From NCBI GenBank assembly GCA_030390025.1, contig CM059431.1, positions 133,550,001 through 133,614,000 on the forward strand: DNA of 64,000 nucleotides, read 5' to 3'. Position 1 is the stretch's first letter. The number at the start of each line of letters is the position of its first letter. A program made the position numbers and the translations under genes. Positions 22,925-28,560 of the stretch are shown here, piece by piece. Origin of the DNA: Squalus acanthias. Its lineage: Eukaryota. The notes under the pieces are model-generated. The model did not search any database. It was not told the origin of the DNA and saw nothing but the letters and a program-made list of their open reading frames with translations.

Positions 22925-23942
22925 GACCAATACTGTCCTGGACAGCTGCATCTGCGACAGGTAGATTGGTAAGGATGAGGTGAAGTAGGTTTTTCCCTCG
23001 TGTTGGTTCTCTCACCACCTGTTGCAAGCCCAGACTGGCAGCTATGTCCTTCAGGGCTCGGTCAGTAGTGGTGCTACCGAGCCACTCTTGGTGATGGACA
23101 TTGAAGTCCCCCACCCAGAGTACATTCTGTGCCCTTACTGCTCTCATTACTTCTTCCAAGTGGTGTTCAACATGGAGGAGTACTGATTCATCAGCTGAGG
23201 GAGGGCGGTAGGTGGTAATCAGCAGGAGCTTCCCTTGCCCATGCTTGACCTGAAGCCATGAAGCTTCATGGGCTCCGGAGTCAATGCTGACGACTACCAG
23301 GGCTATCCTGACTGTATACCACTGTGCCACCACCTCTGGTGGGCCTGTGCTGCCGGTGGGACAGGACATACCCAGGGATGGTGATGGAGGAGTTTGGGAC
23401 ATTGGCTGAAAGGTATGATTATGTCAGGCTGTTGCTTGACTAGTCTGTGGGACAGCTCTCCTAATTTTGGCACAAGTCCCCAGATGTTGGTGAGGAGGAC
23501 TTTGCAGGGTCGACTGGGCTGGGTGTGCCGTTGCTGTGTCCGTAGCCGGTGCCGAGGTCGATGCCGGGTGGTCCGTCTGGTTTCATTTTATTATTGTGTT
23601 TCGTAGCGGTTTGTTACAACTGAGTGGTTTGCTAGGCCATTTCAGAGGGCAGTTAAGAGTCAACCACATTGCTGTGGATCTGGAGTCACAAACTGGCCAG
23701 ACCAGGTAAGAAAAGCATAGTTCCTTCCCTAAAGGACATTAGTGAACCAGATGGGATTTTATGACAATCCGATAGTTTCATGGTTACAATTACTGATGCT
23801 AGCTTTTTATTCCAGATTTATTTAATTAACTGAATTTAAATTCCCCAGCTGCTGTGGTGGGATATGAACTCACATCTCTGGATCATTAATCCAGGTCTCG
23901 TGGATTACTAGCCACAGACATTACCACTATGCTACCATTCCC
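22925..23942 (-). mobile_element. Inverted 5' segment of a CR1/L2-group LINE: tRNA-like head, DeuSINE-like body, APE endonuclease fragment
   Basis: Minus strand: A-box TAGCATAGTGG (23934-23924), degenerate B-box GTTCATATC (23869-23861), then NIWGLVPKLGELSHRLVKQQPDIII, YRPPS, GDFNVH and PTRGKNLL. Confidence 0.75.
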
Positions 23943-23944
23943 AA

Positions 23945-26900
23945 GCCAACACGAGGGGAAAAACCTACTTGACCTCATCCTCACCAATCTACCTGTCACA
24001 GATGCATCTGTCTGTGACAGTATTGGTAGCAGTGACCACCGCACAGCCATTCTTCACACTGAGGACACCCTCCATTGTGTTGTGTGGTACTACCACTGTG
24101 CTAAATGGGATAGATTCAGAACAGATCTAGCAGCTCAAAACTGAGCTTCCATGAGGCGCTGTGGGCCATCAGCAGCAGCAGAATTGTATTCCACTGCAAT
24201 CTGTAAACTCATGGCCAGGCATATCCCTCACTCTACAATTACCATCAAGCCAGGGGACCAACCCTGGTTCAATAAGGAATGTAGAAGAGCATGCCAGGAG
24301 CAGCACCAGGCATACCTAAAAATGGGGTGCCAATCTGGGGAAGCTGCAACACAGGACTACATGCATGCTAAACAGTGGAAACAGCATGCTATAGAGAGAG
24401 CTAAGCGATCCCACAATCAACGGATCAGATCAAAGTTCTGCAGTCCTGCCACATCCAGTCGTGAATGGTGGTGGACCAGTAAACAACTAACAGGAGGAGG
24501 AGACTCCATGAATATCCCCATCCTCAATGATGGTGGAGCCCAGCACGTGAGTGCAAAAGACAAGGCTGAAGCGTTTGCAACCATCTTCAGCCAGAAGTGC
24601 CGAGTGGATGATCCATATTGGACTCCTCCTGAGGTCCCCACCATCACAGAAGCCAGTCTTCAGCCAATTCGATTCACTCCACGTGATATCAAGAAATGGC
24701 TGAGCGCACTGGATACAGCAAGGGCTACGGGCCCCGACAACATCCCAGCTATCGTGGTGAAGGCTTGTGCTCCAGAACTAGCCATGCCTCTAGCCAAGCT
24801 GTTCCAGTACAGCTACAACATTGGCATCTATCCGACAATGTGGAAAACTGCTCAGGTATGTCCTGTCCACAAAAAGCAGGACAAATCCAACCCGGCCAAT
24901 TACCGCCCCATCAGTCTATTCTCAATCATCAGCAAAGTGATGGAAGTTGTCATCGACAGTGCTATCAAGCGGCACTTACTCACCAATAACCTGCTCACTG
25001 ATGCCCAGTTTGGGTTCCACCAAGACCACTCGGCTCCCGACCTCATTACGGCCTTAGTCCAAACATGGACAAAAGTGCTGAATTCCAGAGGTGAGGTGAG
25101 AGTGACTGCCCTTGACATCAAGGCAGCATTTGACCGAGTGTGGCATCAAGGAGCCCGAGTAAAACTAAAGTCAATGGGAATCAGGGGGAAAACTCTCCAC
25201 TGGCTGGAGTCATACCTTACACAAAGGAAGATGGTTGTGGTGGTTGAAGGTCAATCATCACAGTCCCCAGGACAGTGCTGCAGGAGTTTCTCAGGGCAGT
25301 GTCCTAGGCCCAACCATCTTCAGCTGCTTCATCAATGACCTTCCCTCCAACATAAGGTCAGAAATGGGGTGTTCGCTGATCACTGCACAGTGTTCAGCGT
25401 CATTCACAACTCCTCAGATAATGAAGCAGTCCACGACCGCATGCAACAAGACCTGGATGACGTTCAGACTTGGGTTGATAAGTGGCAGGTAACATTCGCG
25501 CCACACAAGTGCCAGGCAATGACTATCTCCAACAAGCAAGAGTCTAACCACCGCCCCTTGACATTCAACGGCATTACCATCGTCGAATCCACCTCCATCA
25601 ACATCCTGGGGGTCACCACTGACCAGAAACTCAACTGGACCAGCCACATAAATACTGTGGCAACAAGAGCAGGTCAGAGGCTAGGTATTCTGTGGCGAGT
25701 GTCTCACCTCCTGACTCCCCAAAGCCTTTCCACAATCTACAAGGCACAAGTCAGGAGTGTGATGGAATACTCTCCACTTGCCTGGATGAGTGCAGCTCCA
25801 ACAACACTCAAGAAGCTCAACACCATCCAGGACAAAGCAGCCCGCTTGATTGGCACCTCATCCACAACAACAACAACAACATGTATTTATATAACTCCTT
25901 TAACGTAGTAAAACGTCCCAAGGCGCTTCACAGGAGTATTTGAAGACAAAAAATTTGACACCGATCCACATAAGGATAAATTAGGGCAGGTGACCAAAAG
26001 CTTGGTCAAAGAGAGAGGTTTTAAGGAGCATCTTAAAGAAGGAAAGAGAAGTAGCGAAGCGGAGAGGTTTAGGCAGGGAATTCTGGAGCTTAGGGCCTAG
26101 GCAACAGAAGGCACGGCCACCAATGGTTGAGCGATTATAATCAGGGATCCTCAAGAGGGCAGAATTAGAGGAGCGCAGATATCTCGGGGGGTTGTGGGCC
26201 TGAAGGAGATTACATAGGTAGGAAGGGGCAAGGCCATGGAGGGATTTGAAAACAAGGATGAGAATTTGAAATCGAGGAGCTGCTTAACCGGGAGCCAATG
26301 TAAGTCAGCGACCACAGGGGTGATGAGCGAACGGGACTTGGTGCGAGTTAGGACACGGGCAGCCGAGTTTTGGATGACCTCAAGTTTACGTAGGGTGGAA
26401 TGTGGGAGGCCAGCCAGGAGTGCTTTGGACTAGTCAAGTCTAGAGGTAACAAAGGCATGGATGAGGGTTTGAGCAGCGGATGAGCTGAGGCAAGGGCGGA
26501 CACGGGCGATGTTACGGAGGTGGAAGTAGGCGGTCTTTGTTATGCTGTGGATATGTGGTCGGAAGCTCATTTCAGGGTCAAATATGGCACCAAGGTTGCG
26601 AACAGTGTGGTTCAGCCTCAGACAGATGTTAGGGAGAGGGATGGAGTCAGTGGCTAGGGAACGGAGTTTGTGATAGATAGATAGATAAGAATGGAACCAG
26701 GCGAGTGCAGTCACACCCAGCTGGACGACGGTGGAGATGCATTGGAGAAGGCTGGAGTGGTCAACCGTGTCAAAGGCTGCAGACAAGTCAAGAAGGACGA
26801 GGAGGGATTGTTTACCTTTGTCACAGTCACAAAGGATGTAATTTGTGACTTTGATGAGAGCCGTTTCGGTAGTGTGGCAAAGGCGGAAACCTGAATAGAG

Positions 26901-28560
26901 GGATTCAAACATGGAATTGTGGGAAAGATGGGCACGGATTTGGGAGGCAACAACATGTTCAAGGACTTTGGAGAGGAAAGGGAGGTTGGAGATGGGGCGG
27001 TAGTTTACAAGGACGGAGGGATCAAGGTTTGTTTTTTTGAGGAGAGGGGTAATGACGGCAGATTTGAGGGAGAGGGGGACAGTACCTGAGGAGAGAGAAC
27101 CGTTAACAATATCAGCTAACGTGGGAGCCAGGAAAAGGAAGTTGGTTGGTCAGCAGTTTGGTGGGAATAGGGTCGAGGGAGCAGGAAGTGGGCCTCATGG
27201 ACAAGATGAGCACAGAGAGGTCATGAGGGGAGATCGGAGAGAAACTGGAGAAAGATGTAAGTTCAGGGCTAGGGCAGGGTGGAACCTTAGAGGAAGTTTG
27301 GCCCGATGGGCTAGGTGAAGGAAGGGAAGTGGCAGAGGCAACTGAACGGATGGTCTCAATCTTAGAGACAAAGAAGTCCATGAGCTCCTCACACTTGTTA
27401 TCCGAGGTGAGGGTGGAGGAGACGGGGAGAGGGGTTTAAGAAGACGGTTAGCAGTAGAGAATAGGAGCCAGGATTTATCTTTGCATTCCAGAAAGATTCT
27501 GGAATAGTGAGCAATTTTGGCAGACGGGAGCAGGGCCTGATAGTGCTTTATGTGGTCCAGCCAGATCTGGCGGTGAATGGCTAAACCAGTTGTCGCCATA
27601 TCCGTTCGAATCTGCATCCCTTGGACTTAAGGGAGTGAAGATCAGTGCCGTACCAGGGGGAACGGCCAGGGTGAGCGAGGGTAATTGTTTTAGTAGGGAC
27701 TAGGGCATCAAAGATAGTGGTGAGGGTGTGGTTGAGCAGAAATGTCACGGTGAATGGAGGGCCAGAGGCTGAACAGTTGGGATTTCGTAAGTGCAGTTGT
27801 AAGAGAGTTGGGAGAGAGTTTTTTCAGGGGCAGACACAGCAGGAAGTAGGGTTGGCGGGTGGGGGGGTGGAAGGGGGATTTGGGTGGAGAGCGATACGAG
27901 GAAATGGTCAGAGATGGCCTTATCTGCAATTGACACGATGAGAGTAGCGTGGCCACGAGAGATGGCAAGGTCGAGGGGCTGGCCGTGAATGTGGGTTGGG
28001 GAGTTTACATGGAGGGAGAGATTAAGGGAGGATAGGAGTCTAGTGAACTCAGAGAAGAGAGAGCATGATGAATTGAGATGGAGTTTGAAATCACCGAGGA
28101 TGAGAAGTCGTTTGGTGCAGAGGCTGAGGGAGGAGAACAGTGAAGATATCTCAATAATAAAATTTATCCACCACCTTAAACATTCCCATGGCTGCAGTGT
28201 GTACCATCTACAAGATGCACTGCAGCAACTCGCCAAGACTTCTTCAGCAGCACCTCCCAAACCCGCGACCTCTTCCACCTAGAAGGACAAGGGCAGCAGG
28301 CGCATGGGAACACCACCACCTCCAAGTTCCCTTCCAAGTCACACACCATCCTGACTTAGAAGTATATCGCTGATCCTTCATCGTCGCTGGGTCAATATCC
28401 TGGAACTCCCTCCCTAACAGCACTGTGGGAGCACCTTCACCACACGGAATGCAGCGGTTCAAGAAGGCGGCTCACCACCACCTTCTCAAGGGCAATTAGG
28501 GATGGGCATTAAATGCTGGCCTTGCCAGCGACACCCACATCCCATAAACAAATTTTAAAA
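23945..28560 (+). mobile_element. CR1/L2-group LINE, 3' part (degenerate ORF2), split by an L2 insertion
   Basis: LDLILTN, SDH, GPDNIP, NYRPISL, QFGF, DIKAAFDRVWH, QGSVLGP, FADH. Resumes at ~28165 and ends ...GCTGGCCTTGCCAGCGACACCCACATCCC followed by an A-rich tail. Confidence 0.85.
25866..28163 (-). mobile_element. L2-clade LINE fragment nested in the preceding LINE
   Basis: TETALIKVTN, LLDLSAAFDTVDH, NLGAIFD, FVTSRLD, LDPIPT, ILGDF. (TTG)n tail on the minus strand, with a possible short TSD ATCCAC. Confidence 0.88.

What the first reader, a model, noticed from the sequence alone, without database searches (positions are those of the whole stretch)
22925..28560. LINE apparently headed by a tRNA-like Pol III promoter plus DeuSINE-like body, with no ORF1
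Seen: on the minus strand from 23942 there is an A-box (TAGCATAGTGG), a degenerate B-box, and a ~150-nt block (..GGTTCACTAATGTCCTTTAGGGAAGG..GACTCCAGATCCACAGCAATGTGGTTGACTCTTAACTGCCCTCTGAAATGGCCTAGC..). After ~130 nt this leads into the N-terminus of an APE endonuclease (NIWGL..PDIII), with no tail, TSD or room for ORF1. From memory, that block resembles the Deu domain of DeuSINEs (SacSINE1/AmnSINE1/SINE3), and the LINE 3' end (28490-28545) resembles the shark DeuSINE tail. Inference: this is an autonomous SINE-headed LINE. Either a LINE captured a SINE as its promoter/5'UTR, or this is the parent from which the SINE arose by internal deletion.
Basis: partly seen in the sequence, partly recalled or inferred. 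Interest (0 to 1): 0.72.

Follow-up and report, generated by a model that had tools for sequence, protein, structure and literature searches.

The report
tRNA-headed Zenon LINE of sharks
This is one decayed, partly flipped copy of an abundant shark and ray jumping gene that encodes its own copying enzymes yet begins, in every published full-length consensus, with the tRNA-like start normally seen on short non-coding SINEs; it is likely read by RNA polymerase III (untested) and likely gave rise to a SINE by losing its middle.

Summary
The head-to-endonuclease junction is real and family-wide; the Deu label is wrong. The locus is one decayed LINE whose 5' 1,017 nt are inverted (82 nt duplicated) and whose 3' part carries a nested L2. 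Its first 400 nt closely match the published consensus SquAca_Zenon-1. All 7 shark and ray Zenon consensuses (5 species; Stuart 2026 supplement) begin with this tRNA-like head, body and linker; the 3 hagfish and coelacanth ones do not. The paper never mentions tRNA or Pol III, and lack of ORF1 is normal for Zenon. Deu-core motifs do not match, and SacSINE1 has an L2 tail. A SINE form (same head and body joined straight to the Zenon tail) appears in contigs of three species and in four predicted peptides, favouring derivation by internal deletion. The sense strand has 1 TTTT in 3,312 nt (private to this copy), compatible with Pol III read-through but statistically weak; an RTE control also has none. 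No in-frame AUG precedes the endonuclease. Pol III transcription is untested (about 45%). This scan noted the same family before on other DNA.

The parts
23856..23942 (-). tRNA-like head; 23942 is position 1 of the element. A-box 23934-23924, B-box 23871-23861 (one change private to this copy). Folds with an anticodon-like arm, a long variable-arm hairpin and a T-arm
   Evidence: same start as SquAca_Zenon-1
23615..23855 (-). about 240-nt body shared by the LINE 5' UTR and its SINE; not the Deu domain
23587..23614 (-). A-rich LINE-only linker, variable in length between species
23461..23586 (-). AUG-led upstream ORF (41 codons here, read on to 48 codons at the next stop), overlapping the endonuclease start in a different frame; AUG present in 6 of 7 consensuses
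22926..23503 (-). APE endonuclease N-terminal part, frameshifted in this copy, no in-frame AUG before motif I; inverted relative to the rest of the element
   Evidence: (PF14529 E 2e-10)
23946..24027 (+). second copy of the 82-nt endonuclease stretch also at 22926-23006 (90% identical); start of the non-inverted part
23946..25865 (+). endonuclease end, linker and reverse transcriptase, with stops and frameshifts
   Evidence: PF00078 E 8.5e-17 and 5.8e-06
25866..28165 (-). nested, 5'-truncated L2-type LINE with its own microsatellite tail and a 6-bp target duplication (25860-25865 and 28166-28171); a later insertion
   Evidence: joints 25857 to 28165/28166 in X1 and X13; L2 label from recalled motifs
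28166..28560 (+). 3' part of the ORF, 3' UTR and tail; the last 75-100 nt are shared with the SINE form; stem-loops (z -2.26); short decayed A-rich end
53230..54041 (+). second copy of the same LINE: 5'-truncated, about 1.2 kb of RT deleted, no L2 insertion, no TTT run

Best explanation
The locus is a decayed, 5'-inverted copy of the elasmobranch Zenon LINE (CR1 group, one endonuclease-RT frame, about 3.3 kb), whose full-length form starts with a tRNA-like A/B-box head that likely serves as an RNA polymerase III promoter and that likely passed to a partner SINE when the coding middle was deleted. Shown: the anatomy; the head as the 5' end of all seven shark and ray consensuses; absence of the head from the hagfish and coelacanth consensuses; a head+body+tail short form; a near TTTT-free sense strand; no in-frame AUG before the endonuclease. 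Inferred: TFIIIC binds the boxes and Pol III starts at about position 1 and reads through to the first T-run past the A-tail; the uncapped RNA is translated by a non-standard route involving the upstream AUG (frameshift or reinitiation); target-primed reverse transcription recognises the 3' stem-loops; the inversion arose by twin priming, the second cDNA running to the RNA's 5' end.
For:: 7 of 7 elasmobranch consensuses (2,886-3,314 nt) start 7-11 nt before the A-box, as a tRNA or SINE does; the B-box is canonical in three species and near-canonical in SquAca-1/-2; none has TTTT in the 400 nt visible (by eye); 0 of 3 hagfish/coelacanth consensuses start this way and all three show T4+ runs; head+body to endonuclease depth is 1.04 (X1), 2.4 (X13), 6.0 (X17); flank bins are about 15- to 50-fold lower in X1; joint 23615/28458 in 9, 16 and 2 contigs of three species; of 8 hits, P0004 runs body to endonuclease, P0007 continues LINE-like, four (P0001, P0002, P0006, P0008) go body to tail, two are uninformative or uncertain; 1 T4 run in 3,312 nt (4.8 expected from composition, P about 0.04), 14 on the antisense strand; T3+ in 812 codons 4 against 9.6 under synonymous shuffling (P 0.004); CR1 and L2 copies in the window have 31 T4 runs in 9.4 kb. 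The single TTTT (23714) is absent from SquAca_Zenon-1.
Against: No transcript start, cap or polymerase data. T4 scarcity is not significant against dinucleotide shuffles (2.2 expected, P 0.30) or synonymous shuffles (0 against 2.0, P 0.10), and the RTE fragment in the window also has 0 in 1.4 kb. The ray consensus has a damaged B-box and shortened variable arm. Head and body do not fold better than shuffles (z -1.47, -0.83). No listed contig bridges 23615 collinearly (only the longest pieces were shown), the joint table gives no orientation, and depths of contigs are not copy numbers. No significant target duplication flanks the whole element (P 0.11), so two copies head-to-head are not excluded. 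5' inversion was seen almost only with L1 in culture (PMC4245944).
Confidence: 0.5

Rival explanations
1. The head is a fixed family feature, but the LINE is transcribed by Pol II (from an internal promoter in head or body, or by host read-through). The A/B boxes are a relic of an old SINE captured by template switching, or are kept only because the SINE needs them.
For: LINEs are generally taken to be Pol II transcripts (PMC5786205 discussion). T4 scarcity is weak under stricter nulls and shared by the RTE control. An uncapped 3.3-kb coding RNA needs unusual translation. The ray B-box is damaged.
Against: The consensus 5' ends coincide with the tRNA 5' end in five species; boxes and arm hairpins persist on LINE-attached heads, which appear to dominate in X1; T3+ runs are depleted at fixed codon usage.
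Confidence: 0.35
2. The SINE came first and is the donor: an existing tRNA-SINE that already used the Zenon tail gave its head and body to a Zenon LINE, and today's SINEs descend from that SINE, not from the LINE.
For: Hagfish and coelacanth Zenons lack the head, so it was gained from somewhere; module exchange among SINEs is well described; heads outnumber endonuclease ends in X13 and X17.
Against: The short forms have no foreign spacer and two different junctions (tail entered near 28458 and near 28486). The 28458 junction falls where two consensuses share 4-5 nt with the tail (by eye). Both are expected of repeated deletions. This rival is compatible with the best explanation for the remote origin of the head.
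Confidence: 0.25
3. The body is the Deu domain, so this LINE is the parent or captor of SacSINE1-type DeuSINEs.
For: Two short non-collinear echoes of about 10 nt against the printed Deu stretch (by eye).
Against: Three Deu-core motifs give 0 matches with up to 3 mismatches in the whole window. SacSINE1 shares its tail with an L2, while this LINE is Zenon. The vertebrate Deu domain is 330 bp; this body is about 240 nt.
Confidence: 0.05
4. A chance SINE insertion or assembly artefact at this one locus.
For: The copy is rearranged and decayed.
Against: The same junction is in 7 of 7 published consensuses from five species and in an independent gene model.
Confidence: 0.01

Closest known systems
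Elasmobranch Zenon LINEs (SquAca_Zenon-1/2/3, CarCar, RhiTyp, ScyCan, HypSab_Zenon-1; Stuart et al. 2026, PMC13343379)
   Same: Same family: the first 400 nt match SquAca_Zenon-1 at roughly 93% (by-eye count), same start, same length, APE+RT, no ORF1.
   Different: The paper's main text has 0 occurrences of tRNA or polymerase III and does not describe the head or a partner SINE. This copy is inverted, broken and interrupted by an L2.
Bipartite LINE-derived SINEs (Bov-A/Bov-tA, AfroSINE, SINE2-1_EC, Vingi-derived; Kojima 2018, PMC5786205)
   Same: A SINE built from the 5' and 3' ends of its partner LINE.
   Different: There the tRNA head is added after the deletion and only RTE and Vingi contribute. 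Here the head is already on the coding LINE, and the clade is CR1-Zenon.
RTE-1_DAn and relatives (one sentence in PMC5786205)
   Same: A LINE holding a tRNA-like sequence that matches SINE2 heads.
   Different: Other clade; position and function are not given in what I read, and it was filtered out as a nuisance hit.
SacSINE1 / LmeSINE1 / AmnSINE1 DeuSINEs (PMC5499810, PMC4824008)
   Same: SacSINE1 is a tRNA-headed SINE of cartilaginous fishes with a LINE-shared tail.
   Different: Deu body and L2 tail; neither matches here.
Twin-primed 5'-inverted L1 copies (PMC2912911, PMC4245944)
   Same: 5' segment reversed, its 5' end abutting the non-inverted part.
   Different: Seen almost only with L1; here in a CR1-group element, with an 82-nt overlap and no significant target duplication.

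Membership tests
Zenon (CR1 group) | APE endonuclease plus RT in one frame | tested here: met
   Pfam hits; alignment to full-length relatives, (frame broken in this copy)
Zenon (CR1 group) | No ORF1 | tested here: met
Zenon (CR1 group) | Sequence identity to a curated Zenon consensus | tested here: met
   Window motifs found in 7 Zenon rows and no other row; near-identity over the 400 nt visible; cells are cut at 400 nt
Zenon (CR1 group) | RT groups with Zenon in a phylogeny | not tested
   No clade-labelled reference RTs were available; the nearest full-length proteins are unnamed, 38% and 35% identical
Zenon (CR1 group) | Poly-A tail | tested here: inconclusive
   Short interrupted A-rich end at about 28544-28560
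DeuSINE (SacSINE1 type) | Deu domain in the body | tested here: not met
   0 matches for 3 core motifs, taken from EbuSINE2 and SINE2-2_CM as printed; the SacSINE1 consensus itself was not available
DeuSINE (SacSINE1 type) | 3' tail shared with an L2 | tested here: not met
   The tail is the 3' end of the Zenon element; SacSINE1 tail is L2-2_CM-like
Pol III type-2 (tRNA/SINE2) transcription unit | A and B boxes at tRNA-like spacing just inside the 5' end | tested here: met
Pol III type-2 (tRNA/SINE2) transcription unit | No T4+ run on the sense strand | tested here: inconclusive
   1 run in 3,312 nt, private to the copy; significant against composition only
Pol III type-2 (tRNA/SINE2) transcription unit | Pol III occupancy and uncapped RNA from position 1 | not testable with these tools
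   Only contigs were available for holder runs
Bipartite LINE-derived SINE | Short non-coding form made of LINE 5' and 3' parts | tested here: met
   Joint 23615/28458 in three runs; four peptides crossing body to tail; full SINE copies not seen
Bipartite LINE-derived SINE | RNA-derived head absent from the parent LINE and added later | tested here: not met
   The parent LINE consensuses carry the head
CORE/Ceph, V or Meta SINE superfamilies | Body aligns to the conserved domain | tested here: inconclusive
   A 20-nt echo of a Ceph/CORE motif was not above my (lenient) null; V and Meta domains were not tested

The most novel reading that the evidence does not exclude
Probability: 0.45. Interest if true: 0.85.

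Novelty: new variant of a known kind. Interest (0 to 1): 0.62.

Why it matters
The working split is that LINEs code and use Pol II, while SINEs do not code and use Pol III. A high-copy LINE with a tRNA-type promoter as its 5' end, kept across sharks and a ray, cuts across that split. It gives a one-step route to a SINE (delete the middle), whereas published models need a deletion plus capture of a head. If Pol III use holds, it would be a natural long protein-coding Pol III transcript and a handle on cap-independent translation. It is directly testable with public consensuses and a reporter assay.

Tried and rejected
No genome was held for the window, so no copy census was possible. Both metagenome scans were empty (exact body motif; RT alignment, 128 pattern hits and none confirmed). 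Two word-index protein searches found nothing. Rfam at gathering threshold: 0 hits in 64 kb. The idea that the AUG in the body starts the endonuclease frame was dropped: that frame closes or shifts differently among consensuses (by eye; stop at 23585 here). Selection on the upstream ORF frame: 9 of 16 differences at third positions (P 0.05), 6 of 12 without CpG sites (P 0.18; by-eye tally, test): suggestive only. Ceph/CORE echo: not above a null that was inflated by lenient gap costs. Target duplication for the whole element: P 0.11. Window motifs were not found in main texts or in two SINE-paper supplements (one file of PMC4824008 was not searchable). The supplement of PMC5499810, which aligns SacSINE1, could not be read and bears on the Deu verdict. 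Searches for a printed description of the head found none; Repbase Reports, Dfam entries and subscription journals were not searchable.
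Full report
Anatomy. Reading 22000-29500, ORFs, Pfam and self-comparison give this layout. On the minus strand from 23942 lie a tRNA-like head, a body of about 240 nt, an A-rich linker and the N-terminal part of an APE endonuclease ending at 22926. On the plus strand from 23946 lie the endonuclease end and RT (to 25865), a nested L2-type element on the opposite strand (about 25866-28165, 6-bp target duplication), and the rest of the ORF and tail (28166-28560). 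An 82-nt stretch is present at both 22926-23006 and 23946-24027 (90% identical). The pieces sum to about 3.32 kb. Contigs of two species skip the nested element at 25857 to 28165/28166, so it is a later insertion. The simplest reading is one full-length LINE with a 5' inversion by twin priming (mechanism as in passages of PMC2912911 and PMC4245944). Two copies head-to-head are not excluded, since no significant target duplication was found (P 0.11).

Host and family. The best named protein matches are exonised fragments in sharks (65-81% identity). An earlier scan note (e1-8041298) pointed to Stuart et al. 2026 (PMC13343379; I saw the abstract, passages, the methods section and supplement rows cut at 400 characters). 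Two window motifs hit 7 rows of its consensus table, all Zenon, from five species (four sharks and a stingray). SquAca_Zenon-1 (3,314 nt) starts at the base matching 23942 and is about 93% identical over the 400 nt visible (by-eye count). The paper states that Zenon elements always lack ORF1 and have poly-A tails; its main text has 0 occurrences of tRNA or polymerase III. So the family is published and 'no ORF1' is ordinary; the head is unremarked in what I could search.

The junction is family-wide. All 7 of 7 elasmobranch consensuses run head, body, linker, then the sequence upstream of the endonuclease. The 3 of 3 hagfish and coelacanth consensuses do not start with this head and are rich in T-runs (by eye; the coelacanth start is low-support). 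Independently, contig depth over head and body against the endonuclease part is 1.04 in run X1, 2.4 in X13 and 6.0 in X17, rising towards the 3' end as expected from 5' truncation (such depths are not copy numbers, and no listed contig bridges the junction). A phmmer search with the frame crossing body and linker gave 8 hits. P0004, a whale-shark gene model, runs from the body peptide into the endonuclease; P0007 continues LINE-like; P0001, P0002, P0006 and P0008 go from body to tail; P0003 and P0005 are uninformative or uncertain.

The head. Rfam's tRNA model scores it weakly in this copy (18.2 bits, E 0.61). The A-box starts at position 9 and the B-box 63 nt later; this is the only such pair in the window. 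The B-box change is private: three consensuses have a canonical box, SquAca-1/-2 a near-canonical one, while the ray and SquAca-3 are damaged. The fold shows an anticodon-like arm, a long variable-arm hairpin and a T-arm, not better than shuffles (z -1.47). A serine-type tRNA origin is my recollection only.

Not Deu. Kojima 2018 (PMC5786205; main text parts 1-4 and supplement part 3 read) prints the Deu stretch of EbuSINE2 and SINE2-2_CM. Three core motifs from it give 0 matches with up to 3 mismatches in the window. Luchetti 2017 (PMC5499810; first two parts read; supplement unavailable) gives SacSINE1 an L2 tail, and Nishihara 2016 (PMC4824008; passages) gives the vertebrate Deu domain as 330 bp. 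The SacSINE1 consensus itself was not seen, so a small doubt remains.

The SINE. A joint between 23615 and 28458 on opposite strands appears in 9, 16 and 2 contigs of three species (orientation not stated, 11,266 joints not shown). Four peptides show a second junction entering the tail near 28486. Neither has a foreign spacer, and the first falls where two consensuses share 4-5 nt with the tail (by eye). Two spacer-free junctions favour repeated internal deletion of a LINE that already had the head. How the LINE first got the head (tRNA, or an older SINE by template switch) is open. [quoted passage not shown]

Polymerase. Pol III stops at T4+ runs (established knowledge). The sense strand has 1 such run in 3,312 nt, absent from the consensus, against 14 on the antisense strand. 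Expected: 4.8 from composition (P about 0.04), 2.2 from dinucleotides (P 0.30). In 812 codons T4+ is 0 against 2.0 (P 0.10) and T3+ is 4 against 9.6 (P 0.004) under synonymous shuffling. CR1 and L2 copies in the window have 31 runs in 9.4 kb, but the RTE fragment has 0 in 1.4 kb. This is compatible with Pol III read-through, not proof. There is no in-frame AUG before the endonuclease motif; an upstream AUG in another frame is in 6 of 7 consensuses and its ORF overlaps the endonuclease start. Evidence for selection on that ORF is weak (P 0.05, or 0.18 without CpG sites). Translation would need frameshifting or reinitiation (inferred).

Verdict. Family-wide tRNA-like head on a coding LINE: about 0.97. 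Not Deu: about 0.9. SINE by internal deletion: about 0.7. Pol III transcription: about 0.45-0.5. It is a new variant of a known kind. This scan had noted the same family in at least nine other findings in two or more genomes; those notes are not counted as support. My T-run, SINE-junction and Deu results came before I saw them; the paper lead came from one of them and was checked here.

Noticed in passing
window 22926-24027: 5' inversion with an 82-nt overlap in a CR1-group LINE; inversions are reported almost only for L1 in culture.
   Followed up: partly
window 23461-23586, minus: Upstream AUG ORF overlapping the endonuclease start in another frame; differences between species seem to switch from its third positions to those of the endonuclease frame near the overlap (by eye, weak).
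   Followed up: partly
window 53230-54041: Second Zenon copy, 5'-truncated with about 1.2 kb of RT deleted.
   Followed up: partly
window about 6000-17300: 11-kb purine-rich tandem array with extreme AT skew (0.8) and long stop-free frames on both strands.
   Followed up: no
window 40475-43347: Tandem array with a 54-bp period, about 94% identity between shifted copies.
   Followed up: no
window 31758-31985, 37447-38095 and 3722-4150: A repeat family inserted as near-perfect inverted pairs (230 bp at 100% in one case), twice inside CR1 copies; Penelope-like by recollection only.
   Followed up: no
window 18939-20172, 31990-33800, 34945-37450, 46860-49300: An RTE-type fragment and several CR1-type fragments (labels from recalled motifs), used as T-run controls.
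   Followed up: partly
proteins P0011, P0012: Closest non-shark full-length relatives (38% and 35%): single endonuclease-RT proteins of 939 and 953 aa on contigs of 3.5 and 3.9 kb; their 5' ends could not be fetched.
   Followed up: partly
proteins P0018, P0019, P0022, P0029, P0033, P0054, P0055: Pieces of this LINE appear inside shark gene models of unrelated proteins; likely annotation artefacts or exonisation.
   Followed up: no
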